A stretch of DNA of 64,000 bases from a virus: positions 192,001 to 256,000 of IMG/VR virus record IMGVR_UViG_3300045988_179268, one strand, 5' to 3'. Below the pieces are notes generated by a model. It did no database searches. It was given only the letters and a program-made list of their open reading frames with translations, and was not told the origin of the DNA. Below, one piece after another: positions 1,755 through 57,577 of this stretch. The translations under genes were made by a program, and so were the position numbers. Each line of letters begins with the position of its first letter. Position 1 is the stretch's first letter.

Positions 1755-2120
1755 GTGGAGGCTCAGAATGTCTCTCAAGCTATTAGTATTATCCTCCCGA
1801 CAGCTCTTCTAGCGCTTTATGTTTTTGCTATTGGGTTGCCCCGTAAGAAGGCTGGGTTTTATCGTAAGCAAGCTGGTGTTTCTGGACGTGCGCGGCGCGG
1901 TAGGATTCTGAATTTTTGGGGTTTCTTTGCGTTAGGTGCAATTGTGTTGGCTAGTAATATCGTGTTTATGACCGGCTTACTTGCATCTGACGTGATTGCC
2001 GTGTATTCTGTAGCCATTGGCAGTTTCTTACTACTGGTCATGCTCGGTCACGCTATCTATGTGTGGCTGGCTGATGGTAAAGAGACTACGAGTGTAGACG
2101 ACTGTTGCCAACTTTATTGA
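1755..2120 (+). CDS. membrane protein
   Basis: GTG start abutting the previous stop; hydrophobic segments; one of only three TGA stops seen. Confidence 0.5.
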   Translation: MEAQNVSQAISIILPTALLALYVFAIGLPRKKAGFYRKQAGVSGRARRGRILNFWGFFALGAIVLASNIVFMTGLLASDVIAVYSVAIGSFLLLVMLGHAIYVWLADGKETTSVDDCCQLY

Positions 2121-2193: not shown

Positions 2194-3750
2194 GTGTTGG
2201 CGAAAAATCAGACGTACAGAGCTTTTACCGTGCGCCCGATGCATATTCTAGACCTGAACGGCGAACTAATGGACAGTGCATCTGTCATGTCCCAGCTTGC
2301 CGCTGAGGTTCGAGACATTTCAGCGTATGCCACTTACGTGGTTCGTAATGACACGAAGCTTGCGGCTGACCTGGCTCAGGTTACTGCTGTTCAGCCAGCG
2401 GTTGCGGGTCGTCGGGCGGGTGTGACCATGCCTAACTTCCTTGCGACAGGCAAGTCGGGTAGGTCGCGTAAAGAGTTTCTGGTTCAGCATAACGTAGTTA
2501 CAGCTTTCCGGTCATGGCAGGAACGCATTAAAGCCATCGAGGGCACCTCTTCCAAGTACGTTTCCCAGGGGTGGAGGCGTACTGTGGATACATCTGCACC
2601 CACGTATGGGGATGCTGATTTCATCAACTTGGGCGCTGTAGATAAGCAGTATGCGGTCATCGAGAATAACCCTGTCGCGGATGGCAAAATTGTCCTCAGG
2701 ATGGTAATTTGCGGTCAGTGGTATCGTCTGATTTTCCCCTTTGATAACTCACGGTTCCCTGAGGGTAAAGTAACTCTACCTGTCATTAAAGTTGAAAATA
2801 ATCAACCTGTTTTCATCTTCACGGTCGTTACTGATAACCCTATCATTCAGTTTTCGGGTGACTACACTATCGGTGTAGACGTTGGCATCAATGACTATGC
2901 TACTGTCGTTGTTCGCAACAGTGCTACAGGGCAGATAACCCGGAAAACCACGCTCTCTCAGCGTGTTCATTCGCTCTGGAACAGTGTTCGTGCGTCTGAA
3001 CGGCAGGTTCGCGCGCTTAATAATAAAGCAGATAAGCTTATCTATGACCGTCAGGCTCACATGTCTGCGTTTGATGAGGCTCAGTTTCATCGCGAGGCGG
3101 CTTCTCGTAAGAAACGTGAGTTGGCGATTCTTGTGGCGCAGGAAATTGCCTACCTATCTCACCGTTGGAATAACGCTGTTGTGGTGGTTGAAGACTTGGG
3201 GTGGATTCGCAATACCATGAGTAACGGCAGGTGGAATCGCGGTGCTTTCGTACAGTGGCTCACTCACTATGTCACCCAGAATGGTGGCTGGGTTGTCGCC
3301 GTGAATGCGTCTAATACATCCCAGGTATGCCATGTGTGCGGTGAAAAGGTCACCCATCCTGAGTACAAGGTTTCCATCTGCCCCGAGCACGGTGACATGG
3401 ATAGGGACGTTAATGCCGCCGCAAATATTGCCTCTAGAGCTGTCCCGAAGGTGGATAAAGCTCGTAAGACTCGCGCTAAGAACCGCAAGCTACAGCCACA
3501 GGCGGCTCTTAAGACTCCGCCTGCCCGCGAAACTCTAAAGTATCCCGGCAGGGATAGGACTAAAAATGTTCCTACTCCGAAGAGGAAGAACCGCATTTCT
3601 GAGGAGGTGAATCTCCCCTTTAGCCCCGCTAGGGTGAATATGACTACGGTACTAGCGGACTGCGACACATACGGTGCCGTGGAGACCTCTAAGGCGGCTA
3701 TCAATCAGGGTAATGTAACTCGCGAATATGGGTTATGTAGCCTAAATTGA
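2194..3750 (+). CDS. tnpB: TnpB/Cas12-like RNA-guided endonuclease family protein (518 aa)
   Basis: RuvC-I GVDVGIND, RuvC-II VVVEDL, zinc ribbon CHVCG..CPEHG, RuvC-III DRDVNAAANI; GGGAGGG RBS; basic C-terminal tail; no tnpA nearby. Confidence 0.8.
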   Translation: MLAKNQTYRAFTVRPMHILDLNGELMDSASVMSQLAAEVRDISAYATYVVRNDTKLAADLAQVTAVQPAVAGRRAGVTMPNFLATGKSGRSRKEFLVQHNVVTAFRSWQERIKAIEGTSSKYVSQGWRRTVDTSAPTYGDADFINLGAVDKQYAVIENNPVADGKIVLRMVICGQWYRLIFPFDNSRFPEGKVTLPVIKVENNQPVFIFTVVTDNPIIQFSGDYTIGVDVGINDYATVVVRNSATGQITRKTTLSQRVHSLWNSVRASERQVRALNNKADKLIYDRQAHMSAFDEAQFHREAASRKKRELAILVAQEIAYLSHRWNNAVVVVEDLGWIRNTMSNGRWNRGAFVQWLTHYVTQNGGWVVAVNASNTSQVCHVCGEKVTHPEYKVSICPEHGDMDRDVNAAANIASRAVPKVDKARKTRAKNRKLQPQAALKTPPARETLKYPGRDRTKNVPTPKRKNRISEEVNLPFSPARVNMTTVLADCDTYGAVETSKAAINQGNVTREYGLCSLN

Positions 3751-32095: not shown

Positions 32096-33277
32096 ATGGA
32101 AGCCACCGAAAACCAATTCCCTAAAACTGGCGATGTCATCTACAACTACCGCAAGCGAGATAAGCCTACTAATAACGGCTTTAACCTATATGACGATATT
32201 CAAGTAATCTACGTCGAATCCGCTGACCCGGAAGGTCAAACAATCACCTACTTCGAGGAAGGTAGGTACTCTAACGAGTTTAGGACAGAAAAGCTTAACC
32301 TCTCCACCTACGACGGTTTTAGCTTCTCCAACCGTCACTCTTACTACACTGAGCATTATGTCGTTGCAGGTCACGGCGTGGACGACTACGCTAAGTACAC
32401 CAATCTTGCCACAAATGCAGGACTGATTACAGGCAGTAACTACTGGAATAACTCAGTGTATGGCTCTAGCGACTACATTGATGAGTATCGACCTGAGTTC
32501 AACATTCTTGATAAGAGTCAGTATCAGTTCTGTATCTCGAACTTCTCGAAGAAAATCTCTTGGGCTCGCGAATCACTGAAGGCTCTCAAAGATACCTATG
32601 AGAGTGAGTTCGTACCTTTCGTTAAGTCTCTTAGCTATGACCTGCCCAGGGTTTCAGAGCGTAAAGATTATCGAGCCAGGACATTTAATAAAATAGAGGT
32701 TGGCGACGTGCTAGTACTGACAATTCGTGACTTGGGCAACCGACCAGACATGATTGTGCAGGTCAAGGCATTCAACAAGGATTCAGCATCCATTGAGACA
32801 GTAGGTGGACTGGAAGGCGTATTGACGGAGTTAAAGCGTGGAGACAACGACTTCAAGGTTGAAATTGATGGTCTTACACTATATGCTGTGAGTGCCGAGG
32901 TTACTTCGGCGGCTTCCGTTGAAGATGCTGTATATAACGAGGCAATTAAGAAGCAGTACCAAGCAGACCTGGAGAGTGCAAGCGACTTCTTTAAGAAGCT
33001 GTTTAATTCCAGCGATGCCGACCCGAATGTTAGTGCCCTCTATAGGACAGCCGTAAATCATGACAATAGCCGTTATGAGTGGTGGAGATTTGGACGTGGT
33101 GGAGACGGCGTTGGGCTGTTTAATTACGGCAAGGGGTATGTTCCTGTTGGTCAGCATATACTGCGCCACACCACACGAATGATTGCCAGTATCGAAGATA
33201 CTGTTACAACCATCATTAATGGTACTGAGCAGATGATTGACAAGATGAACGCCGTGTATGGGTACACCTCGGCGTGA
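32096..33277 (+). CDS. GDV-motif paralog 5 of 6
   Basis: ATG 32096 after AAGGAGGA; KTGDVIYN, VEIDG; TGA stop. Confidence 0.7.
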   Translation: MEATENQFPKTGDVIYNYRKRDKPTNNGFNLYDDIQVIYVESADPEGQTITYFEEGRYSNEFRTEKLNLSTYDGFSFSNRHSYYTEHYVVAGHGVDDYAKYTNLATNAGLITGSNYWNNSVYGSSDYIDEYRPEFNILDKSQYQFCISNFSKKISWARESLKALKDTYESEFVPFVKSLSYDLPRVSERKDYRARTFNKIEVGDVLVLTIRDLGNRPDMIVQVKAFNKDSASIETVGGLEGVLTELKRGDNDFKVEIDGLTLYAVSAEVTSAASVEDAVYNEAIKKQYQADLESASDFFKKLFNSSDADPNVSALYRTAVNHDNSRYEWWRFGRGGDGVGLFNYGKGYVPVGQHILRHTTRMIASIEDTVTTIINGTEQMIDKMNAVYGYTSA

Positions 33278-33354: not shown

Positions 33355-33365
33355 TGTGGTACAGT
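33355..33365 (+). promoter_or_regulatory. promoter motif
   Basis: TGTGGTACAGT. Confidence 0.6.
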
Positions 33366-33415
33366 ATAATTGTATCCATGTTGGAGAAATATTCAGAGAA
33401 ATTAGAGGCAGGAAA

Positions 33416-34775: not shown

Positions 34776-34786
34776 TGTGGTACACT
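34776..34786 (+). promoter_or_regulatory. promoter motif
   Basis: TGTGGTACACT. Confidence 0.65.
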
Positions 34787-34858
34787 GTATATAGATTGTT
34801 AGTAAGTGGGTGAAACTCACGCCCCCACAACCAAACCAACAAAAAAGGAAGTTCAAGA

Positions 34859-36061: not shown

Positions 36062-36241
36062 GTGACGCAATAGGGGTAGATAGGAAAGCCTGAAACATAC
36101 GATGAGTGGTTGGAACGGATGGAAGACCTTACCGGCGTAAACCCCGCCACATACCTACCTCTCTAATTTAGGTGCCCATCAAGTACCTCATTCGATATGG
36201 GAGATGTGATAAACTGACCTTGTAACGAGTGAGGTACTTTT

Positions 36242-40416: not shown

Positions 40417-40427
40417 TGTGGTACAAT
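40417..40427 (+). promoter_or_regulatory. promoter motif
   Basis: TGTGGTACAAT. Confidence 0.65.
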
Positions 40428-40506
40428 TAAATTGAAATAAGATTCATGGAATATAGTTACGGTTCCATGCACAACTAACGCACCTACACGGAAAGGCAAA
40501 AACGCA

Positions 40507-48036: not shown

Positions 48037-48046
48037 AAAAATATCA

Positions 48047-48189
48047 CACCTCGCCTGTGAGAGACGGGAGAGGTGGATAATCTAAACGGATAGGTGGCAT
48101 CGGTTACCTGTCAAGACCAGGATAACTGGCATCAGACAGTTTGAGGGTCACCGTTAAGGAAAATCCTTAACTCATCTACCGAATGACTC
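48047..48189 (+). ncRNA. E-module E2
   Basis: begins 11 nt after the -10 at 48026-48036; P1, TCTAAACGG, TCAAGACCAGGA, TTGAGGGTCACCGT, P4 GTTAAGGA-AAA-TCCTTAAC; ends CTCATCTACCGAATGACTC. Confidence 0.7.
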
Positions 48190-48231
48190 TGGGTAATACG
48201 GATTAGCGGGGTAATCACCCTTGCCAGGAAG

Positions 48232-48333
48232 CGTATTCTCCGTACACGCGGGGATGACTCCGGTTTCTGCCCCGTAAATGGGTTAGCCTCATGGCACGCC
48301 GCATCGTATTCTCCGTACACGCGGGGATGACTC
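48232..48333 (+). CRISPR. two identical type I-E-like repeats, non-canonical 44-nt interval
   Basis: CGTATTCTCCGTACACGCGGGGATGACTC at 48232-48260 and 48305-48333 (29/29 identical); the interval itself contains a degenerate repeat, TTTCTGCCCCGTAAATGGGTTAGCCTC. Confidence 0.5.
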
Positions 48334-48447
48334 TATAAACGGGTGGGCAACATTCGTGTCGCACGTCAAGACCAGGAGAGTTAGGTAACTAGCTTGAGGG
48401 TCACCGCCTAGTGAAACACTAGACCCACCCCGCGCAGGGGATGGCTC
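48334..48447 (+). ncRNA. E-module E3 (lacks P1; a full repeat sits in its place)
   Basis: TATAAACGG, GTCAAGACCAGGA, TTGAGGGTCACCG, CTAGTG-AAA-CACTAG; ends CCCACCCCGCGCAGGGGATGGCTC. Confidence 0.65.
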
Positions 48448-48568
48448 CCCGAGTCAGCAACAGGCAACCCAGACATCTTAACCGCGTTCCCTATATACGC
48501 GGGATGACTCACAGGCTCACCCTCACATACTCGCTGGGTGGATTCTCCAACATACGTAGGGCTGGCTC
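48419..48568 (+). CRISPR. mini-array: E3 terminal repeat plus two degenerate repeats
   Basis: repeat ends at 48447, 48510 and 48568 (periods 63 and 58 nt); repeats CGCGTTCCCTATATACGCGGGATGACTC and GGATTCTCCAACATACGTAGGGCTGGCTC. Confidence 0.45.
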
Positions 48569-48604
48569 ATACCAGGTGTGTGACACAGATAACACAAAAT
48601 CAGG

Positions 48605-48634
48605 TTGCGTACCATGAAAAACATGTGGTACACT
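48605..48634 (+). promoter_or_regulatory. tRNA/E operon promoter
   Basis: TTGCGT, 18-nt spacer, TGTGGTACACT; upstream palindrome TGTGTGACACA. Confidence 0.7.
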
Positions 48635-48718
48635 TGATATATAAGGCGCGGGGGTTTGAGAAAGCCGCCAATGCAAAGCTCATTGATAACTATATAGGGT
48701 AAAAACTATTGAACATAA

Positions 48719-48802
48719 GCCGCAGTGCCTGAGTTTGGAAAAAGGGGCTGACTGTAAATTAGCTGTCGTTCGACTACGGGGGTTCAAATCCCTCCTGCGG
48801 CA
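48719..48802 (+). tRNA. tRNA-Tyr(GTA)
   Basis: acceptor GCCGCAG/CTGCGGC, anticodon arm GCTGA-CTGTAAA-TTAGC, long variable arm, T-loop TTCAAAT; no encoded CCA. Confidence 0.85.
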
Positions 48803-48831
48803 CGCAACACATCATTAAGATGTGTTCTATA

Positions 48832-48990
48832 TACCTCGCCTGTTGGTGAGATGGGAGAGGTAGTAAAAATAAACGGGTAGGCAACAGTGTTTGTCACGCC
48901 AAAACCTGAAAAGCAGGTTATAGCCACAGGGCAATCTGGGCGCTCCTTGACCGTGCAACAAGGGGTCACCAAAAATCAAAGCACGGGTAT
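48832..48990 (+). ncRNA. E-module E4 (divergent variant)
   Basis: P1 TACCTCGCC..GGGAGAGGTA and AATAAACGGG are conserved; the central part is replaced by other hairpins; GGGGTCACC is retained; 3' end unclear. Confidence 0.4.
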
Positions 48991-49020
48991 GTTCAACACG
49001 TCAGCATAATTGAGTGCTGT

Positions 49021-49174
49021 GACCTCGACCTGCGAGGGGCGGGGAGGTCGAAAAAATAAATGGGCAGGCGGCTACCAGCTATCCTGTCAAGACCAGGAAG
49101 GCTGACGACAGTCAGCTGGAGGGTTACCGTCTAGTGAAACGCTAGACCCAACTCATATAGAGGAAATCCGGCTC
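49021..49174 (+). ncRNA. E-module E5
   Basis: P1 GACCTCGACCTGC/GCGGGGAGGTC (compensatory changes), TCAAGACCAGGA, GGAGGGTTACCGTC, P4; terminal hairpin CTC-ATATA-GAG covaries with CCC..GGG in other copies. Confidence 0.7.
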
Positions 49175-49260
49175 AGTATATATCAGGGGTCACTTTCCCA
49201 TACACGCGAGGATGGCTCCATAGCGGGATGGTTGAAACCTCCCTACATGCGGGATGGCTC
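49146..49260 (+). CRISPR. degenerate repeat cluster after E5 (13-15-nt intervals)
   Basis: repeat-like units end at 49174, 49218 and 49260; ..CCCATACACGCGAGGATGGCTC and ..CCCTACATGCGGGATGGCTC. Confidence 0.35.
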
Positions 49261-49287
49261 CCGCAACAAAATAATACGAAACCAGGC

Positions 49288-49316
49288 TTGCAAACCACAA
49301 AAACATGTGGTACACT
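49288..49316 (+). promoter_or_regulatory. tRNA/E operon promoter
   Basis: TTGCAA, 17-nt spacer, TGTGGTACACT. Confidence 0.7.
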
Positions 49317-49327
49317 GGTTTACATAG

Positions 49328-49398
49328 GCCCATCTAGCTTAATGTAAAGCAACAGTCTTCAAAACTGTGAGATGTCGGTTCAAGTCCGGCGGTGGGTG
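49328..49398 (+). tRNA. tRNA with UCA anticodon (UGA-reading; suppressor or Trp-like)
   Basis: acceptor GCCCATC/GGTGGGT, D arm GCTT/AAGC, anticodon arm ACAGT-CTTCAAA-ACTGT, T arm GTCGG-TTCAAGT-CCGGC, discriminator G. Confidence 0.8.
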
Positions 49399-49447
49399 CT
49401 TGCAAGTAACAAAACCGGAGTTCTAGCCGAAAGTGGCGTAACTTGCG

Positions 49448-49529
49448 GCGTGTAATGACCACGAAGGCAAGTGGCGAGCCCAGTTAGAATGGGCACGTAA
49501 TAGTAGGGGTCGGTTCCCTTCTACACGCT
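49448..49529 (+). tRNA. non-canonical tRNA-like element, possible pseudo-tRNA
   Basis: perfect 7-bp terminal stem GCGTGTA/TACACGC and an anticodon-like arm GCCCA-GTTAGAA-TGGGC (TAG), but the D and T arms do not fold canonically. Confidence 0.3.
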
Positions 49530-49534
49530 CTACA

Positions 49535-49674
49535 CTCCTCGTCTGCGAGAGATTGGGAGAGGAGGATAATAAAAACGGGCGCTAACCGCGTCAAGACCAG
49601 GAAAGCCAACGATAGTCAGCTTGAGGGTCACCGTCTAGTGAAACACTAGACCCAGCCCACGTAAGGGGCGGCTC
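49535..49674 (+). ncRNA. E-module E6
   Basis: P1 CTCCTC../..GAGGAG (compensatory changes), AAAAACGGG, TCAAGACCAGGA, TTGAGGGTCACCGTC, P4; ends CCCAGCCCACGTAAGGGGCGGCTC. Confidence 0.7.
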
Positions 49675-49728
49675 AAGAGCAGTGCTTTTACACAGCAAAG
49701 GTCGTGGGTTCAAATCCCTCACGAACCA
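49675..49728 (+). pseudogene. 3' fragment of a Tyr-type tRNA abutting E6
   Basis: GTCGTGGGTTCAAATCCCTCACGAACCA matches the T arm and acceptor 3' strand pattern of the Tyr tRNAs, but no complementary 5' acceptor strand lies upstream. Confidence 0.5.
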
Positions 49729-49756
49729 CACTTGGTACCCTTTTATAGGGCATCAA

Positions 49757-49829
49757 GTCTCTTTAGCTCAGATAGTAGAGCGCCCGCCTGAAGAGCGGGA
49801 GGTCGCCAGTGCAAGCCTGGCAGGAGACA
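49757..49829 (+). tRNA. tRNA-Phe(GAA)
   Basis: acceptor GTCTCTT/AGGAGAC, anticodon arm CCCGC-CTGAAGA-GCGGG, T arm GCCAG-TGCAAGC-CTGGC. Confidence 0.85.
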
Positions 49830-49861
49830 CGTAAGCCCACCTATTTTTTCGGTGGTGCATT

Positions 49862-50004
49862 ACCTCTCGCCTGTGAGAGACGGGAGAGAGTGAAAACGGA
49901 CGGGCGGCTTCGGTTGCCTGTCAAGACCAGGAGAATTAACTTCGGTTAATTTGAGGGTTACCGTCTAGTAAAATACTTAGACCCACCCATGTATGGGAAG
50001 GCTC
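49862..50004 (+). ncRNA. E-module E7
   Basis: all conserved blocks present; P3 AATTAAC-TTCG-GTTAATT; ends CCCACCCATGTATGGGAAGGCTC. Confidence 0.7.
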
Positions 50005-50064
50005 ATCCAGTCTACAGCTAAGAAAGCGCGCGGTGCAGTATTTCTTATATACACGGGATGGCTC
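49976..50064 (+). CRISPR. one-spacer unit after E7
   Basis: terminal repeat ends at 50004, 33-nt spacer 50005-50037, repeat GTATTTCTTATATACACGGGATGGCTC at 50038-50064. Confidence 0.45.
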
Positions 50065-50202
50065 TCTTACAGTCTGGTTCCTTTTTTGCGCCCATGTGGG
50101 CTGACTGGGAATTACTTATATGAAGAAAGAAGAGATGTGGCATCACTAACATGCACTGCTTTATCTCTGTTTTTTCAGTGACACAGATAACACAAAATCG
50201 AG

Positions 50203-50232
50203 TTGCAAACCACGAAAAACATGTGGTACACT
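50203..50232 (+). promoter_or_regulatory. tRNA/E operon promoter
   Basis: TTGCAA, 18-nt spacer, TGTGGTACACT. Confidence 0.7.
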
Positions 50233-50314
50233 TTATATATGAGACGTGAGGGCTTGAAAGAGTCCCCGACGCAAAAGCTCATTGAAAACCTTATAGAGTA
50301 AACTATTTAATCAA

Positions 50315-50398
50315 GCCGTTGTATCCAAGTGGTCAAAGGAAACTGTCTGTAAAACAGTCGCTATCGAAGCTTCGTGGGTTCGACTCCCTCCGGCGGCA
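50315..50398 (+). tRNA. tRNA-Tyr(GTA), second copy
   Basis: acceptor GCCGTTG/CGGCGGC, anticodon arm ACTGT-CTGTAAA-ACAGT, long variable arm, T-loop TTCGACT. Confidence 0.85.
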
Positions 50399-50469
50399 CG
50401 AGACACATTACTAGAATGTGTTTAGCTACATCATCTATACGTGCTATAGTTGTTGCAGTAAATATTTTT

Positions 50470-50540
50470 GGCGTACTAGTTTAGTGGTAAAACCTCAGTC
50501 TTCCAAACTGATGATACGGGTTCGATTCCCGTGTACGCCT
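50470..50540 (+). tRNA. tRNA-Gly(TCC)
   Basis: acceptor GGCGTAC/GTACGCC, anticodon arm TCAGT-CTTCCAA-ACTGA, T arm ACGGG-TTCGATT-CCCGT, discriminator T. Confidence 0.85.
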
Positions 50541-50544
50541 CTAT

Positions 50545-50683
50545 GCTCCTCGCCTGTGAGAGACGGGAGAGGAGCTAAATCTAAACGGACACTCACGTGT
50601 CAAGACCAGGAGAGTTGGGCAACCTACTCAAGGGTTACCGTCAAAGTAAAGCTTTGGCACGCTCCGCATAAGGTCGATGACTT
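50545..50683 (+). ncRNA. E-module E8
   Basis: starts 5 nt after tRNA-Gly; P1 GCTCCTCGCCTGT/ACGGGAGAGGAGC, TCTAAACGG, TCAAGACCAGGA, AAGGGTTACCGTC; degenerate end ..GGTCGATGACTT. Confidence 0.65.
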
Positions 50684-50818
50684 AGAGTAAGTATCTACAT
50701 GTTCTAAGTCATCGTGCGGGATTCGCGTCTCACTAAATCCTGCGTGTCTAAGGATTCTCCTTCTCATTAGAGAGACTATAGATGCGTTTTACATAATCTG
50801 AAATAACTAACACTTTAA

Positions 50819-50900
50819 GCGCTTGTGGCGGAATTGGCAGACGCGGCAGACTTAGAATCTGTTGTCAGCAGACGTGTGGGTTCGAGTCCCACCAGGCGCA
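50819..50900 (+). tRNA. tRNA-Leu(TAG)
   Basis: acceptor GCGCTTG/CAGGCGC, anticodon arm GCAGA-CTTAGAA-TCTGT, long variable arm, T arm GTGGG-TTCGAGT-CCCAC. Confidence 0.85.
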
Positions 50901-50930
50901 CTTGGTGTCCACAAGTGCATGTGGGTGCCC

Positions 50931-51052
50931 GCTTCCGTATCCAAGCTAGGTTAAGGGGAGCGTCTTTCATGAGCCTTCTGCACATAACGGCTATGGGAGC
51001 GCTTGCGGTGCATGAGAGTGCCCGCGCGCCGGTTCAAATCCGGTCGGAAGCA
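50931..51052 (+). tRNA. over-long (122 nt) tRNA-like element, anticodon not assignable
   Basis: acceptor GCTTCCG/CGGAAGC and T arm GCCGG-TTCAAAT-CCGGT are canonical, with a plausible D arm; about 35 extra nt lie in the anticodon/variable region. Confidence 0.35.
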
Positions 51053-51084
51053 CGTAACGCCACCTACTATGGTGGCTTGTTACT

Positions 51085-51227
51085 CACCTCGCCTATGAGA
51101 GATGGGAGAGGTGAATAATCTAAACGGACACTAACCATGTCAAGACCAGGAGAACTAGCTTACGCTGGTTAGAGGGTCACCGTCTAACAAAATGTTTAGA
51201 CCCGCCTCGTATTTATGGGGTAGGCTT
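51085..51227 (+). ncRNA. E-module E9
   Basis: P1 CACCTCGCCTAT/ATGGGAGAGGTG (G-C to A-T compensation); all blocks present; ends CCCGCCTCGTATTTATGGGGTAGGCTT. Confidence 0.7.
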
Positions 51228-51309
51228 TCAGCCTCATTAGGTAACCTATTGAGGCACCCTTATTGCAATAGGGGAGCCTTCGGGCTTCTGGCTTTTATCA
51301 CTCATTCTT

Positions 51310-51339
51310 TTGCGAGATTGAGTGTTGGTGTGGTATACT
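51310..51339 (+). promoter_or_regulatory. tRNA operon promoter
   Basis: TTGCGA, 18-nt spacer, TGTGGTATACT. Confidence 0.65.
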
Positions 51340-51358
51340 TATCATGCTTACTCTTTAG

Positions 51359-51438
51359 GCGCTTGTGGCGGAACTGGCAGACGCGGCGGACTTAAAATCC
51401 GCTTCTTCGGAGTGTGGGTTCGAGTCCCACCTGGCGCA
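51359..51438 (+). tRNA. tRNA-Leu(TAA)
   Basis: anticodon arm GCGGA-CTTAAAA-TCCGC, long variable arm, T arm GTGGG-TTCGAGT-CCCAC. Confidence 0.85.
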
Positions 51439-51468
51439 CGCAACCACCCTTAACTGGGAGGTTTATAT

Positions 51469-51542
51469 TCCCTTGTAGCTCAATTGGCAGATGCGCCCGA
51501 CTGTTAATCGGGAGGTTACTGGTTCGAGTCCAGTCTGGGGAG
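51469..51542 (+). tRNA. tRNA-Asn(GTT)
   Basis: acceptor TCCCTTG/CTGGGGA, anticodon arm CCCGA-CTGTTAA-TCGGG, T arm ACTGG-TTCGAGT-CCAGT. Confidence 0.8.
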
Positions 51543-51594
51543 CTTACGTCACTTATGCGTGGCGTTGATACCTTAGCTTTTTTGTTAAGGTTCT

Positions 51595-51670
51595 GGTCTG
51601 TTAGCTCAGTGTTGGTTAGAGCACCGCCCTGTCACGGCGGAGGCCGCGGGTTCGAGCCCCGTACAGACCG
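51595..51670 (+). tRNA. tRNA-Asp(GTC)
   Basis: acceptor GGTCTGT/ACAGACC, anticodon arm CCGCC-CTGTCAC-GGCGG, T-loop TTCGAGC. Confidence 0.85.
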
Positions 51671-51692
51671 CGTATAGTTTTTTTGGCTATGC

Positions 51693-51831
51693 CTCTCGCC
51701 TGTGAGAGACGGGAGAGAGTAAAAACGGACAGGTAGCTTCGGTTACCTGTCAAGACCAGGATAGCGGGGTAACCTGCTTGAGGGTCACCGTCTGACAAAA
51801 TGTTAGACCCAGCCCACGTAGGGGATGGCTC
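51693..51831 (+). ncRNA. E-module E10
   Basis: follows tRNA-Asp; all blocks present; ends CCCAGCCCACGTAGGGGATGGCTC; followed by a 32-nt spacer and a full repeat. Confidence 0.75.
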
Positions 51832-51892
51832 CTTGGACTCGAAGTTTTGACGAATAGGGAGTCCGTTTTCCCAGCACACGCGGGAGTGGCTC
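51803..51892 (+). CRISPR. one-spacer unit with exact 29+32 nt geometry after E10
   Basis: terminal repeat ends at 51831, spacer 51832-51863 (32 nt), repeat CGTTTTCCCAGCACACGCGGGAGTGGCTC at 51864-51892; period 61 nt. Confidence 0.6.
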
Positions 51893-51932
51893 ACCGTGAC
51901 CTCCTGTGTGATACAGGTAACATAAAAACGGC

Positions 51933-51962
51933 TTGCATACCATAGAAACTATATGGTACACT
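51933..51962 (+). promoter_or_regulatory. tRNA operon promoter
   Basis: TTGCAT, 18-nt spacer, TATGGTACACT; upstream palindrome CCTGTGTGATACAGG. Confidence 0.65.
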
Positions 51963-52029
51963 TGCTATATATGGTTCGGGGAAACCTGAAAGACCGATAC
52001 GCTATTTCTTAATTGAATGAATTTTTTTT

Positions 52030-52103
52030 GCCTCCTTAGCTCAGTTGGTTAGAGCATCTGTCTTGTAAACAGAGGGTCGCCGGTTCGACTCCGGCAGGAG
52101 GCT
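52030..52103 (+). tRNA. tRNA-Thr(TGT)
   Basis: acceptor GCCTCCT/AGGAGGC, anticodon arm TCTGT-CTTGTAA-ACAGA, T arm GCCGG-TTCGACT-CCGGC. Confidence 0.9.
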
Positions 52104-52139
52104 CGCTAAAGTAGATAGTTTTACTGTTTGCTTTTATGA

Positions 52140-52212
<73 letters not shown>

Positions 52213-52242
52213 CTCACACGCCTGTTGCAGGTTGTGTGTTAA

Positions 52243-52315
52243 GCGCCTTTAGCTCAGTCGGTAGAGCAGTGGACTTTTAATCCTCGGGTCGCGGGTTCGA
52301 GCCCCGCAGGGCGCA
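52243..52315 (+). tRNA. tRNA-Lys(TTT)
   Basis: acceptor GCGCCTT/AGGGCGC, anticodon loop CTTTTAA, T arm GCGGG-TTCGAGC-CCCGC. Confidence 0.85.
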
Positions 52316-52552
52316 CGTAGCATGAAGGGATGTAGCTAATCCTTTCGTAATACACCGGATAAACACTATTCAGAAGGTCGTAGGTTAAAATCCTGCCACG
52401 TGCCACATTGCACGTGTAGCTCGGTGTTATAAGAGCGTCTGGACGGTGCCGGTTTAAGCCATACACAGGGGAAGTGACCTACACACTTCCATAGGGGTAG
52501 CGCCCCGGCTGTCTTGTAGGATAAGGGTACCTCTTAGCGGGGGTGCTCTCAT

Positions 52553-52628
52553 GGTCTGTTAGCTCAGTGTTGGTTAGAGCACCGCCCTGTCACGGCGGAG
52601 GTCGCGGGTTCAAGTCCCGTACAGACCG
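52553..52628 (+). tRNA. tRNA-Asp(GTC), second copy
   Basis: near-identical to 51595-51670; T-loop TTCAAGT. Confidence 0.85.
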
Positions 52629-52666
52629 CTTATATGGCGCACTGACCGCCTAAATAGTCAGTCTAA

Positions 52667-52740
52667 GCCCTTGTAACTCAGCTGGTTAGAGTGCCGCTCT
52701 GATAAGGCGGATGCCGGTGGTTCAAGTCCACCCAAGGGCA
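52667..52740 (+). tRNA. tRNA-Ile(GAT)
   Basis: acceptor GCCCTTG/CAAGGGC, anticodon arm CCGCT-CTGATAA-GGCGG, T arm GGTGG-TTCAAGT-CCACC. Confidence 0.9.
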
Positions 52741-52742
52741 CT

Positions 52743-52814
52743 GTGTGTGAAGCCGGATAGCGAGGCGCTTGCTTGTGGCGCAAGTAGTAGCGGGTGCGAT
52801 TCCCGTCACACACC
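52743..52814 (+). tRNA. tRNA-His(GTG)
   Basis: acceptor GTGTGTG/CACACAC, anticodon arm CTTGC-TTGTGGC-GCAAG, T arm GCGGG-TGCGATT-CCCGT, discriminator C. Confidence 0.85.
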
Positions 52815-52816
52815 CC

Positions 52817-52891
52817 GCTCCCCTAGTTCAGTCTGGATAGAACGCCGTGCTACGAACGCGGAGGTGGCAGGTTCAAATCCTGCGGGGAGCA
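52817..52891 (+). tRNA. tRNA-Arg(ACG)
   Basis: acceptor GCTCCCC/GGGGAGC, anticodon arm CCGTG-CTACGAA-CGCGG, T arm GCAGG-TTCAAAT-CCTGC. Confidence 0.9.
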
Positions 52892-52924
52892 CGTAACAGC
52901 ACCTATTATGGTAGTGTGTTATAT

Positions 52925-53070
52925 ACCTCGCCTGTGAGAGACGGGAGAGGTGGTAAATCTAAACGGATAGGTGGCATCGGCTACCTGTCAAGACCAGGAT
53001 GGCGGGGCAACCTGCTTGAGGGTCACCGTCTAGTGAAACACTCAGACCCAACCCACATAAGGGAAAACGT
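52925..53070 (+). ncRNA. E-module E11
   Basis: follows tRNA-Arg(ACG); all blocks present; degenerate end CCCACATAAGGGAAAACGT. Confidence 0.65.
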
Positions 53071-53120
53071 AAGGTGAATCTATTTTGCGGCTTGACCCGG
53101 TATTAAGCCTAGTCAGGAAG

Positions 53121-53205
53121 ATTTTTCCCTACGCATGTGAGGCTGGCTCTACTCAGCCTAACATGCGTAGGCGACGTTTTCTCCGTACACGCGAGGGGAT
53201 GGCTC
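53121..53205 (+). CRISPR. two degenerate repeats after E11
   Basis: ATTTTTCCCTACGCATGTGAGGCTGGCTC at 53121-53149 and GTTTTCTCCGTACACGCGAGGGGATGGCTC at 53176-53205; 26-nt interval; the first repeat and the interval form a long inverted repeat. Confidence 0.4.
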
Positions 53206-53288
53206 CGGCTAGGATACGCCCTTCAAGGCGGCGCTACTTTCTTTACATACATAGAAAGTCAGCTTTTATCAATATGCTCACAACATAT

Positions 53289-53361
53289 GCCCCCATCGTC
53301 TAGATGGTTAGGATACTACCCTTTCAAGGTAGAGATGCGGGTTCGAGTCCCGTTGGGGGTA
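53289..53361 (+). tRNA. tRNA-Glu(TTC)
   Basis: acceptor GCCCCCA/TGGGGGT, anticodon arm CTACC-CTTTCAA-GGTAG, T arm GCGGG-TTCGAGT-CCCGT. Confidence 0.85.
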
Positions 53362-53496
53362 CGCAAGCTTCAAGAGTTATATTTGTAGCTTTTGGAAGCT
53401 GGCATGGGGTCATGCTGTTTTTATAGTTATGGTCACAATTTAACCTTTCGTTACATCGAGTAGCGGCTCGCCGTCTTGTTGGTTGCCGCTATTCTT

Positions 53497-53570
53497 ATCC
53501 CAGTAGCTCAGTGGATAGAGCGCCCGCCTCCTAAGCGGGGTCGTCACAGGTTCGACTCCTGTCTGGGATA
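53497..53570 (+). tRNA. tRNA-Arg(CCT)
   Basis: acceptor ATCCCAG/CTGGGAT, anticodon arm CCCGC-CTCCTAA-GCGGG, T arm ACAGG-TTCGACT-CCTGT. Confidence 0.85.
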
Positions 53571-53604
53571 CTTTTAGGTAAACCTGTTTTTTAGGTTTAC
53601 CGTT

Positions 53605-53677
53605 GCCTCCTTAGCTCAGCGGATAGAGTACCCGATTCCGAGTCGGGTGGTCACAGGTTCGATTCCTGTAGGAGGCG
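53605..53677 (+). tRNA. tRNA-Arg(CCG)
   Basis: acceptor GCCTCCT/AGGAGGC, anticodon arm CCCGA-TTCCGAG-TCGGG, T arm ACAGG-TTCGATT-CCTGT. Confidence 0.85.
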
Positions 53678-53678
53678 C

Positions 53679-53750
53679 GTCCCCGTGGTCTAATCGGGAG
53701 GATGCCGCTCTCTCAAGGCGGCGATGCGGGTTCGAGTCCCGTCGGGGGTA
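53679..53750 (+). tRNA. tRNA-Glu(CTC)
   Basis: acceptor GTCCCCG/CGGGGGT, anticodon arm CCGCT-CTCTCAA-GGCGG, T arm GCGGG-TTCGAGT-CCCGT. Confidence 0.8.
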
Positions 53751-53874
53751 CGCTCATGCGCGGCTTTTTGTTGCGTGTGTTGTGGTGACTTTCGGTAGTT
53801 ACCTTTTTTGTACGGCTTGGGCTGGGTTTGGTTTTTCCTCACTTTTGCCTTACTCAGGTTTCTGGTCGTGTTTC

Positions 53875-53947
53875 GCGCTTTTAGCTCAGTTGGTAGAGCA
53901 AGGGACTCTTAATCCCTGGGTCGCGGGTTCGAGCCCCGCAGGGCGCA
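53875..53947 (+). tRNA. tRNA-Lys(CTT)
   Basis: acceptor GCGCTTT/AGGGCGC, anticodon arm AGGGA-CTCTTAA-TCCCT, T arm GCGGG-TTCGAGC-CCCGC. Confidence 0.85.
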
Positions 53948-53977
53948 CGTAGCACATTCCTTTTGGGTGTGTTTACT

Positions 53978-54128
53978 CACCTCGCCTGTGAGGGACTGGG
54001 AGAGGTGGCTAATCTAAACGGATGGGTAGCTTTGATTGCCTGTCAAGACCAGGAGAATCTGCCTTTGGTGGGTTTGAGGGTCACCGTCTAATAAAATATT
54101 AGACCCAACCCTGTGCAGGGGATGGCTC
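53978..54128 (+). ncRNA. E-module E12
   Basis: follows tRNA-Lys(CTT); all blocks present; ends CCCAACCCTGTGCAGGGGATGGCTC. Confidence 0.7.
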
Positions 54129-54175
54129 GACAAAAAAGTCAGGCGGTGTTTTCCCTGTATACGCGGGGATGACTC
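54100..54175 (+). CRISPR. E12 terminal repeat plus one repeat, 18-nt interval
   Basis: repeat TGTTTTCCCTGTATACGCGGGGATGACTC at 54147-54175. Confidence 0.4.
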
Positions 54176-54206
54176 ACCGCTAATATGTACAATTCCATAC
54201 CTTTTT

Positions 54207-54279
54207 GCCCTAGTAGCTCAGGGGATAGAGCAGTCGCCTTCTAAGCGATTGGTCGCAGGTTCGAATCCTGCCTGGGGCA
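54207..54279 (+). tRNA. tRNA-Arg(TCT)
   Basis: acceptor GCCCTAG/CTGGGGC, anticodon arm GTCGC-CTTCTAA-GCGAT, T arm GCAGG-TTCGAAT-CCTGC. Confidence 0.85.
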
Positions 54280-54306
54280 CGCTATATGCCTCAAGGTGTG
54301 TCGCAA

Positions 54307-54459
54307 CACCTCGCCTGTGAGGGACTGGGAGAGGTGGTTAATCTAAACGGGTGGGTGGCTTTGGTTGCCTGCCAAGACCAGGAAAGCTGGCTTCGGTCAG
54401 TTTGAGGGTCACCGTCAAAGTAAAACTTTGGCTCATCTACCGCATAAAGTGAATGGGAA
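54307..54459 (+). ncRNA. E-module E13
   Basis: follows tRNA-Arg(TCT); all blocks present; end of the E2 type, CTCATCTACCGCATAAAGTGAATGGGA. Confidence 0.7.
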
Positions 54460-54495
54460 ATGTGGGTTGGCGAGGTGTTTATCCTTGTCAATAAG

Positions 54496-54638
54496 GATTT
54501 TCCCCGTACACGCGGGGATGGCTCCTGGACCCTCAAACTTGCTAGAGTAGAGCACGTATTTTCCCCGTACACGCGGGGATGGCTCTAACGTCAAGCCTAT
54601 TAGCGTTTACGTTTTCCCTTGTATGCGTGGGGTGACTC
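54496..54638 (+). CRISPR. three-repeat, two-spacer type I-E-like mini-array
   Basis: R1 54496-54524 and R2 54557-54585 are 28/29 identical (ATTTTCCCCGTACACGCGGGGATGGCTC). Spacer 1 is 32 nt (period 61). Degenerate terminal repeat at 54610-54638 after a 24-nt spacer. Confidence 0.65.
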
Positions 54639-54669
54639 ACAATAACCCTTTTATATATTCACAACATAT

Positions 54670-54743
54670 GCCCCCGTGGTCTAATTGGTCAGGATGCCAC
54701 TTTCTCAAGGTGGGTGGTACGGGTTCGAGTCCCGTCGGGGGTA
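54670..54743 (+). tRNA. tRNA-Glu(CTC), second copy
   Basis: acceptor GCCCCCG/CGGGGGT, anticodon arm CCACT-TTCTCAA-GGTGG. Confidence 0.8.
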
Positions 54744-54775
54744 CGTTCATGCGCGGTTTTTGTTGCGTGTGTTTT

Positions 54776-54848
54776 GCGCTTTTAGCTCAGTTGGTAGAGC
54801 AACGGACTCTTAATCCGTGGGTCGCCGGTTCGAGTCCGGCAGGGCGCA
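54776..54848 (+). tRNA. tRNA-Lys(CTT), second copy
   Basis: anticodon arm ACGGA-CTCTTAA-TCCGT, T arm GCCGG-TTCGAGT-CCGGC. Confidence 0.85.
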
Positions 54849-54878
54849 CGTAGCACATTCCTTTTGGGTGTGTTTACT

Positions 54879-55029
54879 CACCTCGCCTGTGAGGGACTGG
54901 GAGAGGTGGCTAATCTAAACGGATGGGTAGCCTTTGGGTTGCCTGTCAAGACCAGGAAAATTAGCTTAGGCTGATTCGAGGGTCACCGTCTGGCAAAATG
55001 GCAGACCCACCCTTTGTAGGGGGCGGCTC
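54879..55029 (+). ncRNA. E-module E14
   Basis: follows the second tRNA-Lys(CTT); near-duplicate of E12; ends CCCACCCTTTGTAGGGGGCGGCTC. Confidence 0.7.
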
Positions 55030-55098
55030 AGTGTTTGAGAATGAGGGTTGCGCCCTCAGCGAGTATTTCCCGTAAATATAATTACTATTTCACATTGT

Positions 55099-55172
55099 TC
55101 CCTTGTAGCTCAATTGGCAGATGCGCCCGACTGTTAATCGGGAGGTTGTAGGTTCGAGTCCTTCCGGGGGAG
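55099..55172 (+). tRNA. tRNA-Asn(GTT), second copy
   Basis: 5' two-thirds identical to 51469-51542; acceptor TCCCTTG/CGGGGGA. Confidence 0.8.
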
Positions 55173-55188
55173 CTTTTAATATTGTGTT

Positions 55189-55247: not shown

Positions 55248-55274
55248 ATTTTTTAGTTGAAAGGTTTTCATAGA

Positions 55275-56309
55275 ATGTTTGTTTGCGAGGATGTGTCCCC
55301 TGTTGGTTCTGGCAAGGTTCAGTCTATTTCTTTGGGGGAGTCATTTTTGCCTGGTGACGTGATGGATGTATTGAATCCGTCTATTCCGAGTGCGGCGGCG
55401 CGTATGGTATTGATTTATAAGCGTGATGTTGTCTCTGCTGGTGCGCAGTTGGTGGGCGTTTTCACTGTTTCTGCCGACCCTGCTACTTTTGCGGGTGGTG
55501 TTGATGGTCAGGGTATTATTCCAGGTGTTGCCTCTGGTTCGCTTGTTGAGCGTGTCGTTGAGAGTGTTCCTGTGCAGGGTGGTGATTACGCCTCACATGC
55601 GTTGAAGGTTGCGTCCTGGTTGTCTAATTCTGGTGTGCCGCTGGGTTATGGTGGTGATTTGCGCAATGGTTTTGCTTTTACTGCGTTTGAATCTGCTGAG
55701 GGCGCATGTGCTGTGCCTGATGCGTTTGAGTTTTTGGATGCGGCGGGTGTGTCTGTCCCTTGGTATAACGAGGGTAACTATTTCGGGTACACTGTTTCTG
55801 GTGTTAGTAAGATTAGTTCCCTTAAGGGTGTGGGTTCTGTGTTGGGCGACCTTGGTGACGTTGGTGTGGACTCCCGCGCGCTGAGTCAGGGGGTTGATGG
55901 TGCTGGCGACAATGCTTATGTCGCGTGGTTGCTGTGGGGTGTTGATGATGGTGGTCGTGTTGGGGATGTGCATCTTGTGGCTGGTGACCCGACGCTAAAT
56001 GGGTTCCCGACTGTGGGGTTGCCGTTTATTAAGGGCGCTCCTCAGCTTGTGGGTGTCCCGGTTGAGGAGTATGGTTATCGTTTGGTGACGAAAATGTTCA
56101 CTAATTTCACTTCTGTTTTTGTCACTATTAAGTCCCCTTTGTTTAATGCTAATCGTGTTTGTTATGATGCTGGTAAGGGTTTGTATTCTTTGCCTGTTGT
56201 GGTGACTTTGGGGTCTGAGTCGCCATTGTGGGTGCCTGGCGATTTGGGGGCGCGTATGCGCTATGTTAAGGCTGTTTTGGGGCGCGATGGGGCTTTAAAT
56301 ATCTTGTAA
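55275..56309 (+). CDS. G/V-rich paralog A in the GT-biased island
   Basis: ATG 55275 after GAAAGG (track TTG 55257); C-terminal YDAGKGLYSLPVVV matches the two downstream genes. Confidence 0.55.
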   Translation: MFVCEDVSPVGSGKVQSISLGESFLPGDVMDVLNPSIPSAAARMVLIYKRDVVSAGAQLVGVFTVSADPATFAGGVDGQGIIPGVASGSLVERVVESVPVQGGDYASHALKVASWLSNSGVPLGYGGDLRNGFAFTAFESAEGACAVPDAFEFLDAAGVSVPWYNEGNYFGYTVSGVSKISSLKGVGSVLGDLGDVGVDSRALSQGVDGAGDNAYVAWLLWGVDDGGRVGDVHLVAGDPTLNGFPTVGLPFIKGAPQLVGVPVEEYGYRLVTKMFTNFTSVFVTIKSPLFNANRVCYDAGKGLYSLPVVVTLGSESPLWVPGDLGARMRYVKAVLGRDGALNIL

Positions 56310-56388
56310 ATAGCCTTTTTGGGGAGCTTGTCATACTTTTGTGTGGCAGGCTCCTTTTTGTGTGTTTTCCGGGTTTTGGGCGGGTTGG

Positions 56389-56399
56389 TGTGGTAGACT
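56389..56399 (+). promoter_or_regulatory. promoter motif
   Basis: TGTGGTAGACT. Confidence 0.55.
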
Positions 56400-56462
56400 G
56401 GTGGTGGGGTTGCGTCGGGTCTTGACGTTGCCCCCTTTTTTCTATCTTTTTCTACTATTTTT

Positions 56463-57455: not shown

Positions 57456-57577
57456 CGCCTTTACCCGCTTTCGGGGGTATGGGTTTTGCGCTGTGGGGTG
57501 TTAGAATAAGGTGTGTTGCTTGTCCCCTTTTTGGGGTTCGGTGATGCACCTTATTCTTTTTTGTTTTTGGGAGGTTT

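What the first reader, a model, noticed from the sequence alone, without database searches (positions are those of the whole stretch)
49328..49398. UGA-reading tRNA(UCA) in a window that almost never uses TGA as a stop
A well-folded 71-nt tRNA has the anticodon loop CTTCAAA (UCA) and discriminator G, as in bacterial tRNA-Trp, whose loop is CTCCAAA. Of the 58 ORF ends I read, 55 are TAA or TAG. Only 3 are TGA (1755..2120, 2194..3750, 32096..33277), which is far below expectation for DNA of roughly balanced GC content. Avoiding TGA both as a stop and as a sense codon in early-type genes, together with a suppressor tRNA, is the pattern described for phages that recode a stop codon in late genes.
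Basis: partly seen in the sequence, partly recalled or inferred. Interest (0 to 1): 0.75.

Follow-up and report, generated by a model that had tools for sequence, protein, structure and literature searches.

The report
Tryptophan tRNA mutated to read UGA
One strain of a widespread, uncharacterised ~320-kb phage-like element has its own tryptophan tRNA with the anticodon changed from CCA to UCA, so it should read the stop codon UGA, but nothing I could reach shows that any gene uses UGA as a sense codon.

Summary
A sound 71-nt tRNA with anticodon UCA and discriminator G lies at 49328-49398. Only 3 of 49 plus-strand ORFs of at least 100 aa in the window end in TGA.

The tRNA is an ortholog of a tRNA-Trp(CCA). 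Eight related genomes carry CCA at the same place in the tRNA array, between tRNA-Tyr and tRNA-Phe. Every stem difference keeps base pairing. Only this genome, and an identical second assembly, has UCA.

The recoding interpretation is not borne out by what could be reached. TGA stops are equally rare in the CCA-carrying relatives (about 9%), so the depletion is older than the UCA change and is not tied to it. No gene has an in-frame TGA in 77 kb of this genome. Code 4 gives no real gain in coding density. No RF1 or TrpRS gene was seen.

The best reading is a strain-specific opal-suppressor allele of the element's own tRNA-Trp, tolerated because the genome is already poor in TGA stops. This matches the "standard code plus suppressor" state described next to TGA-recoded phages.

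The other 242 kb of the 319-kb genome could not be fetched, so late-gene recoding remains untested. The contig was catalogued as a plasmid, and no phage structural gene was recognised.

The parts
49328..49398 (+). tRNA-Trp-derived tRNA with anticodon UCA (anticodon at 49359-49361; discriminator G at 49398). It has a 7-bp acceptor stem, a 4-bp D stem with a short 6-nt D loop lacking GG, a 5-bp anticodon stem, a 5-nt variable loop and a 5-bp T stem.
   Evidence: Searches show it is a tRNA. Searches show orthology with tRNA-Trp(CCA) and pairing kept in all 21 stem pairs.
49288..49316 (+). Inferred promoter directly upstream of the tRNA: -35 TTGCAA (49288-49293), 17-nt spacer, and TGTGGTACACT (49306-49316), which is a TRTG-type extended -10 plus TACACT.
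   Evidence: The motif TGTGGTAYAMT recurs about 24 times on the plus strand of 77 kb, nearly always between genes. It is conserved upstream of the CCA orthologs in close relatives. The generic sigma-70 scan does not call it because it scores 8/12 against a threshold of 9. Function is inferred.
48719..55173 (+). tRNA array of 25 tRNAs in which the UCA tRNA is second. tRNA-Tyr(gta) at 48719-48803 and tRNA-Phe(gaa) at 49757-49830 are the synteny anchors on either side.
   Evidence: The same order, Tyr - Trp(CCA) - (Val) - Phe, is seen in relatives.
49670..49720 (+). Degenerate tRNA-Val(UAC)-like remnant between the UCA tRNA and tRNA-Phe. The two IMG/VR relatives have an intact tRNA-Val(tac) here.
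   Evidence: Rfam tRNA 28.9 bits, model positions 9-63; relatives.
1755..2120 (+). One of the three plus-strand genes ending in TGA (121 aa), immediately upstream of a TnpB gene. The next in-frame TAA/TAG lies 75 codons downstream.
2197..3750 (+). TnpB-like (Cas12f1-like_TNB) transposon gene ending in TGA, probably of foreign origin. The next TAA/TAG lies 99 codons downstream.
32096..33277 (+). 393-aa gene ending in TGA. In this genome it is in frame with the next paralog, so the open frame would run to 34603. In relative L002 the two genes are in different frames, so a read-through fusion is not conserved.

Best explanation
This is the element's own tRNA-Trp gene in which the first anticodon base has changed from C to U (CCA to UCA) in one strain. 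Shown: it is a structurally intact tRNA, orthologous and syntenic to tRNA-Trp(CCA) genes in eight related genomes, and it sits behind the same promoter-like motif. Inferred from established knowledge of tRNA-Trp identity (G73, C35 and A36 retained) and of U34 wobble: the host TrpRS charges it with tryptophan and it reads UGA as well as UGG, so it acts as an opal suppressor while still serving as a Trp tRNA. The element can tolerate this because the whole family already ends about 91-95% of its genes in TAA or TAG, a trait that predates the mutation. In the parts that could be read, the genome is in the standard code. It therefore sits in the 'standard code plus suppressor tRNA' state, which has been proposed as a possible first step towards TGA-to-Trp recoding. 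It is not a demonstrated recoded genome. Whether the allele is adaptive (for example by causing read-through of host UGA stops while the element's own genes are spared) or a tolerated recent mutation is not known.
For: It is a tRNA. Orthology and synteny: Tyr(gta) - Trp(CCA) - Phe(gaa) in IMGVR_174689 (L040), IMGVR_174371 (L043) and six closer genomes L046 and L048-L052. Alignments A1-A4 show the same acceptor stem, the same odd short D loop, the same T arm and G73. All 63 stem cells pair, with 2 compensatory and 3 wobble-preserving changes. L050 has the same anticodon stem as the window but with CCA, so C34 to U is the only distinctive change. It is not an assembly error: Logan contig ERR589699_17286 is identical over 14,111 nt including the tRNA. 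TGA-stop depletion. The depletion is family-wide. Standard code in the 77 kb of this genome. The same holds in about 30-40 kb more from close relatives and about 156 kb of a CCA relative. Precedent: a standard-code Agate phage with 4/146 TGA stops, and standard-code relatives that acquired a TGA suppressor tRNA (bioRxiv 10.1101/2021.08.26.457843).
Against: Charging with Trp and decoding of UGA are inferred, not shown. C34 is itself part of TrpRS recognition in E. coli (from memory), so charging may be weakened. The D loop lacks the usual G18 G19, although the CCA orthologs share this. Three real genes end in TGA with no nearby back-up stop; efficient suppression would extend them by 75, 99 and 441 codons, which argues for weak suppression or some cost. 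About 242 kb (76%) of this genome was not seen, so 'standard code' is established only for the region examined. It is not known whether the two assemblies with UCA come from independent samples.
Confidence: 0.65

Rival explanations
1. The genome really is TGA-to-Trp recoded (code 4) in late, structural or lysis genes that lie in the 242 kb not examined. The window would then be the standard-code early region.
For: The tRNA is a Trp-type UGA reader. TGA stops are rare. The region examined looks early: it has host-type promoters, a tRNA array, Pnkp and RNA ligase. In Agate phages the code differs between genomes sharing more than 90% ANI, and recoding is confined to structural and lysis genes.
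Against: About 70 genes in 77 kb have no in-frame TGA. All 8 relatives examined have CCA and no other suppressor tRNA in arrays of up to 23 tRNAs, so any recoding would be very recent. No RF1 or TrpRS gene was seen. There is no purge of TGA stops relative to relatives. No structural genes were identified at all, and the contig was catalogued as a plasmid.
Confidence: 0.15
2. The UCA allele is a selected tool against the host or competitors. Read-through of host UGA stops would disturb host or rival-phage translation, while the element's own TAA/TAG-terminated genes are spared. No TGA sense codons would be needed.
For: The element is almost free of TGA stops. The tRNA sits behind a host-type promoter of the class used across this early-looking region. 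The structure is fully maintained.
Against: This is pure inference. Only one strain of nine has the allele, which is not what a strongly beneficial trait would predict. The host and its TGA usage are unknown.
Confidence: 0.1
3. A neutral or slightly harmful recent mutation with little functional consequence: the tRNA is poorly charged or poorly expressed, and is a transient variant caught in a metagenome.
For: The allele is private to one strain among nine. C34 contributes to TrpRS recognition (from memory). Three TGA-terminated genes lack back-up stops.
Against: The allele is the consensus base in two assemblies. The genome was recovered as a contig of about 319 kb catalogued as complete. All stems are intact.
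Confidence: 0.08
4. A selenocysteine tRNA (ARAGORN's label), or a tRNA-Gly(UCA) of the code-25 kind.
For: ARAGORN prints 'tRNA-SeC' for the tca anticodon.
Against: It is 71 nt long, with a 7-bp acceptor stem, a 4-bp D stem and a 5-nt variable loop, not the long-armed 8/5 tRNA-Sec form. It is orthologous to tRNA-Trp(CCA). Discriminator G73 fits Trp rather than Gly, which has U73 (from memory). Genes contain no in-frame TGA, unlike the phages of code-25 hosts.
Confidence: 0.01

Closest known systems
Standard-code relatives of TGA-recoded Agate phages that carry a TGA suppressor tRNA and have almost lost TGA stops (Borges et al., bioRxiv 10.1101/2021.08.26.457843; read)
   Same: The code is standard in what can be read. 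TGA is rare as a stop (4/146 there; 3/49 to 6/70 here), with TAG and TAA used instead. A TGA-reading tRNA is present. The authors propose this state as a step that may precede recoding.
   Different: Here the origin of the suppressor can be traced: it is an in-place C34 to U change in the element's own tRNA-Trp, with CCA in 8 relatives. The element is about 320 kb, unrelated in sequence to any deposited phage, and of uncertain nature (phage or plasmid). No recoded sister genome is known for this family.
TGA-to-Trp (code 4) recoded gut phages: Jade and Agate clades (same paper)
   Same: A suppressor tRNA reading UGA, Trp as the inferred amino acid, a large genome, and standard code in early or replication regions.
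   Different: The defining in-frame TGAs in structural and lysis genes were not found in the 24% of the genome examined. No TrpRS/RF1 'code change operon' was seen. Relatives have CCA.
tRNA-Trp(UCA) of Mycoplasma/Spiroplasma and mitochondria, derived from tRNA-Trp(CCA) (from memory, not checked here)
   Same: The same anticodon change on a tRNA-Trp body. U34 is expected to read both UGA and UGG.
   Different: In those systems UGA is an established Trp codon throughout the genome and RF2 is absent. Here no UGA sense codon is seen, and the host's release factors are unknown.
Laboratory opal suppressors derived from E. coli tRNA-Trp (from memory, not checked here)
   Same: A mutation in tRNA-Trp gives UGA read-through with Trp insertion.
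   Different: Those were selected in the laboratory in a cellular gene. This one is a natural allele in a mobile element's tRNA array.

Membership tests
tRNA-Trp (bacterial type) | Canonical cloverleaf that scores as a tRNA | tested here: met
   Rfam 60.6 bits; called by ARAGORN; the MFE fold is the cloverleaf.
tRNA-Trp (bacterial type) | Common descent with tRNA-Trp(CCA) genes (orthology and synteny) | tested here: met
   Same position between Tyr(gta) and Phe(gaa) in 8 relatives. Shared acceptor stem, D arm, T arm and G73.
tRNA-Trp (bacterial type) | Identity elements G73, C35, A36 and C34 | tested here: inconclusive
   G73, C35 and A36 are present. C34 is replaced by U. The effect on charging cannot be computed.
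Opal suppressor / UGA-decoding tRNA | Anticodon complementary to UGA on an otherwise intact tRNA | tested here: met
   Anticodon UCA; all 21 stem pairs intact.
Opal suppressor / UGA-decoding tRNA | Actual aminoacylation and UGA read-through | not testable with these tools
   Needs a reporter assay, mass spectrometry or a charging assay.
Stop-codon-recoded phage, code 4 (Borges et al.) | In-frame TGA in conserved (structural or lysis) genes; coding density clearly higher under code 4 than code 11 | tested here: not met
   Not met in the 77 kb of this genome that could be read (24%): coverage is 0.80 under code 11 against 0.85 under code 4, the same gain as the TAG and TAA controls, and no real ORF has an in-frame TGA. 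The other 242 kb is untested.
Stop-codon-recoded phage, code 4 (Borges et al.) | Suppressor tRNA for the recoded stop codon | tested here: met
Stop-codon-recoded phage, code 4 (Borges et al.) | Accessory code-change genes (RF1, TrpRS), present in some clades | tested here: not met
   None found by Pfam or PHROGs among about 50 proteins of the window and flanks. A weak class-I aaRS hit in 9825-10763 (16 bits against a cut-off of 27) has no PDB match.
Stop-codon-recoded phage, code 4 (Borges et al.) | It is a phage, with recognisable virion, packaging or lysis genes | tested here: inconclusive
   No structural gene was recognised in any region reached. The contig is from a 'complete plasmids' dataset, but relatives are filed in IMG/VR as viral genomes.
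Standard-code element with acquired suppressor tRNA (pre-recoding state) | Standard code, rare TGA stops and a TGA-reading tRNA together | tested here: met
   for the part of the genome examined.
tRNA-Sec | Extended acceptor/T arms (8/5), 6-bp D stem, long variable arm, about 90-100 nt | tested here: not met
   71 nt, 7/5 arms, 4-bp D stem, 5-nt variable loop.

The most novel reading that the evidence does not exclude
This strain has been caught at the very start of a genetic-code change. A resident tRNA-Trp became a UGA reader in a TGA-poor giant element, and the first TGG-to-TGA substitutions (or functional read-through extensions) already exist in the unseen 242 kb. With eight CCA-carrying sister genomes, this would give a dated, step-by-step natural series from standard code to code 4.
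Probability: 0.15. Interest if true: 0.65.

Novelty: new member of a known kind. Interest (0 to 1): 0.4.

Why it matters
Models of stop-codon reassignment in phages propose this order of events: the stop codon becomes rare, a suppressor tRNA appears, and then in-frame stops accumulate. Here the first two steps can be ordered with sequence evidence inside one family. TGA depletion is shared by all members, while the suppressor arose later by a single anticodon change in the element's own tRNA-Trp in one strain. That makes this family (many assemblies of 280-410 kb in metagenomes, several of them from human-cohort studies) a convenient natural system for asking whether and how fast sense TGAs follow. 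There is also a practical point: ARAGORN's 'SeC' label and a count of rare TGA stops are not enough to call a genome recoded.

Tried and rejected
1) Recoding within the window. Code-4 ORFs with in-frame TGA were checked. The 167-codon frame at 39940-40440 lies in a 1.1-kb conserved non-coding region, and the same TGAs occur in CCA relatives. The 32096-33277 TGA gene is in frame with the next gene here but not in L002.

2) Apparent split genes in relatives. L001 has frameshifts. The 'code-4 ORFs' in L032/L033 are antisense frames opposite a long plus-strand ORF that runs off the locus end. The L034/L035 difference is a frameshift.

3) Reaching the rest of the genome. The exact-protein look-ups that succeeded reached at most 10 kb to either side of the gene asked for. 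Several others found no record, in most cases for ORFs with GTG or TTG starts. Two long concatenated protein queries found nothing and one shorter query worked. The single metagenome scan and the viral scans allowed a walk along relatives, but those relatives turned out to carry CCA, so their standard code says little about this strain.

4) Host identification. Two genome-collection scans found nothing. TnpB homologs in plasmids and phages are only about 25% identical. No relatives were found among deposited phages or plasmids.

5) The promoter motif was rejected as a probe for a collection scan because it is too short and is sparse in distant relatives.

6) A TrpRS-like reading of the protein at 9825-10763 was rejected.

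7) Second tRNA-like signals at 50931-51052 and 49670-49720 are not Trp or suppressor tRNAs.

Full report
**Where the window comes from.** Exact-protein look-ups place the window at 192,001-256,000 of JGI contig 3300053491|Ga0557493_018680, which is 319,371 bp long. [quoted passage not shown] The element was therefore catalogued as a complete plasmid, whereas two relatives are in IMG/VR as viral genomes. The family is common: each protein cluster has about 157 sequence variants, on contigs of 280-412 kb, several of them from assemblies named after human-cohort studies. It has no relative among deposited phages or plasmids. Nearly all proteins are ORFans in Pfam and PHROGs. The exceptions are a polynucleotide kinase/phosphatase, a T4 Rnl1-type RNA ligase, a resolvase, several TnpB genes and an AAA_5/VWA-like pair. 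No virion, packaging or lysis gene was recognised anywhere I could reach.

**The observation.** The tRNA is real. ARAGORN calls it at 49328-49399 with anticodon tca. Rfam scores it 60.6 bits. The cloverleaf is the minimum-free-energy fold. It is the second gene of a 25-tRNA array (48719-55173), and no tRNA-Trp(CCA) is present. Over 77 kb of the contig (the window plus both flanks) the counts are TAA 41, TAG 23 and TGA 6 of 70. TGA makes up 38-46% of stop trinucleotides in the background, giving p of about 3e-8 or lower. Two of the three real TGA stops in the window belong to, or sit directly upstream of, a TnpB transposon gene.

**What the tRNA is.** A lineage-specific repeat served as a probe and retrieved the tRNA arrays of two IMG/VR relatives. 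A 69-aa protein next to the array retrieved seven closer relatives at about 83-91% DNA identity. In all eight genomes that reach the site, a tRNA-Trp(CCA) lies between tRNA-Tyr(gta) and tRNA-Phe(gaa), exactly where the window has UCA. The alignments show shared features: the acceptor stem, an unusual 6-nt D loop without GG, the T arm and discriminator G73. On a three-sequence alignment all 63 stem cells pair, two anticodon-stem pairs changed on both sides, and three changes keep a G-U pair. With only three sequences the shuffle control is weak (54/500), but no substitution breaks a pair. Relative L050 has the window's anticodon stem with CCA, so the only distinctive change is C34 to U. The promoter-like motif upstream (TTGCAA, 17 nt, TGTGGTACACT) is shared with the close CCA relatives. 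A second assembly, Logan ERR589699_17286, is identical to the window over 14,111 nt including the tRNA, so the base is not an assembly error. ARAGORN's 'SeC' label reflects only the anticodon; the molecule has none of the tRNA-Sec architecture.

**Is the genome recoded?** In the 77 kb of this genome, code 11 gives long, tightly packed ORFs. Treating TGA as sense raises coverage from 0.80 to 0.85, no more than treating TAG (0.84) or TAA (0.85) as sense. Each candidate ORF with in-frame TGA was examined and rejected. The same holds for about 30-40 kb more from close relatives and about 156 kb of a 360-kb IMG/VR relative. Those relatives carry CCA, however, so they speak for the family and not for this strain. 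No RF1 or TrpRS gene was seen. The three TGA-terminated genes have no nearby back-up stop; read-through would add 75, 99 and 441 codons. The in-frame arrangement of 32096-33277 with the next gene is not kept in relative L002.

**Is the TGA depletion linked to the tRNA?** No. The share of TGA stops is 6/70 in this genome. It is 14/163 in close relatives whose anticodon was not seen, 12/135 in the two IMG/VR genomes with CCA, and 9/86 in six close genomes with CCA, most of those nine being spurious minus-strand ORFs. Orthologous genes nearly always keep the same stop codon. This genome has TAA or TAG where a relative has TGA in three genes, and the reverse in one. The depletion is therefore a family trait that predates the UCA change. 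It may reflect the host. The promoters carry a TRTG-type extended -10 element and genes have Shine-Dalgarno sites, which from memory is typical of Bacillota, several of which use TAG more often than TGA. The host itself could not be identified.

**Interpretation.** The best-supported reading is a strain-specific opal-suppressor allele of the element's own tRNA-Trp. It is expected, by inference, to be charged with Trp and to read UGA and UGG, and it is tolerated because the genome is already poor in TGA stops. This corresponds to the state Borges et al. describe beside TGA-recoded Agate phages: a standard-code genome with 4/146 TGA stops, and standard-code relatives that acquired a TGA suppressor tRNA, which they suggest may precede a code change. 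True recoding of late genes remains possible. The 242 kb not examined could hold it, and in Agate phages the code differs between genomes sharing more than 90% ANI. I put this at about 0.15, because all relatives have CCA and none of about 70 genes seen has an in-frame TGA.

**Limits.** Aminoacylation, expression and suppression are inferred. It is unknown whether the two UCA assemblies come from independent samples.

Noticed in passing
window 10806-10980 and twelve sites from 48043 to 55110 (anchors GTCAAGACCAGGA at 10873, 48110, 48365, 49086, 49590, 49920, 50599, 51139, 51749, 52987, 54042, 54371, 54945): A 160-200-nt repeat occurs 13 times, 12 of them interleaved with the tRNAs. RNAalifold on 12 copies gives 4 helices and 31 pairs, 16 with compensatory changes, plus conserved single-stranded blocks (TCTAAACGG, GTCAAGACCAGGA, GAGGGTCACCGTC). 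It has no Rfam match even at E<=1, and in IMG/VR it occurs only in the two relatives. It is a candidate for an undescribed structured RNA family tied to this element's tRNA arrays.
   Followed up: partly
whole window; source contig 3300053491|Ga0557493_018680: The 319-kb element was catalogued as a complete metagenomic plasmid (geNomad training set), while relatives are in IMG/VR as viruses. No structural or packaging gene was recognised in any region reached. The family is widespread, with about 157 variants per protein cluster on contigs of 280-412 kb. Its nature (jumbo phage, megaplasmid or other giant element) is unresolved.
   Followed up: partly
window 39385-40510: A roughly 1.1-kb stretch between a TnpB gene (38230-39384) and the next gene has stops in all frames, yet its DNA is more conserved among relatives than the flanking genes. 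It has no Rfam match. It may be a large non-coding RNA, perhaps linked to the TnpB.
   Followed up: partly
window 50931-51052 (+): A tRNA-like RNA of 122 nt scores 35.7 bits on the Rfam tRNA model, above the gathering score. It has a 7-bp acceptor stem, a normal T arm, a greatly extended anticodon arm (30-nt insertion) and a long variable arm. ARAGORN does not call it. Its function is unknown.
   Followed up: partly
window 16092-17644 (-); also 2197-3750 (+) and 38230-39384 (+): An IS605-orfB-I RNA (omega-RNA type, 195.9 bits) lies next to a 438-aa TnpB gene, and there are two further TnpB-like genes. Relatives have extra TnpB insertions, for example a 521-523-aa gene just before the tRNA array in L046-L053 that is absent from the window. 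TnpB elements are therefore actively polymorphic in this family.
   Followed up: no
window 24413-37444 (+): An RNA-repair module: Pnkp-like kinase/phosphatase (24413-25981) and a T4 Rnl1-type RNA ligase (34859-36061). They are embedded in a run of about ten ORFs of 360-440 aa with no family match, about 12 kb upstream of the tRNA array.
   Followed up: no
window 55257-58585 (+): Three consecutive genes of similar length (350, 330 and 335 aa) have no family match; the first is G- and V-rich. They lie in a stretch with extreme strand composition: GC skew +0.46 and AT skew -0.55 at 56-58 kb. Long ORFs are open on both strands.
   Followed up: no
77 kb around the window, e.g. window 9774, 13829, 17832, 24367, 27255, 34776, 40417, 47510, 48624, 49306, 50222, 59078, 61049: A promoter-like motif TGTGGTAYAMT (a TRTG-type extended -10 element) occurs about 24 times, almost only on the plus strand and between genes. 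It is much sparser in the distant IMG/VR relatives.
   Followed up: partly
L007 19799-20983; L010 16553-20211; L024 8698-13417: To the right of the window lies a run of 330-415-aa genes, several of which visibly share a C-terminal CxC...WYPL motif. At least two also contain repeats such as GNxxIxG that suggest a beta-helix. None has a family match beyond weak hits to PHROGs of unknown function.
   Followed up: no
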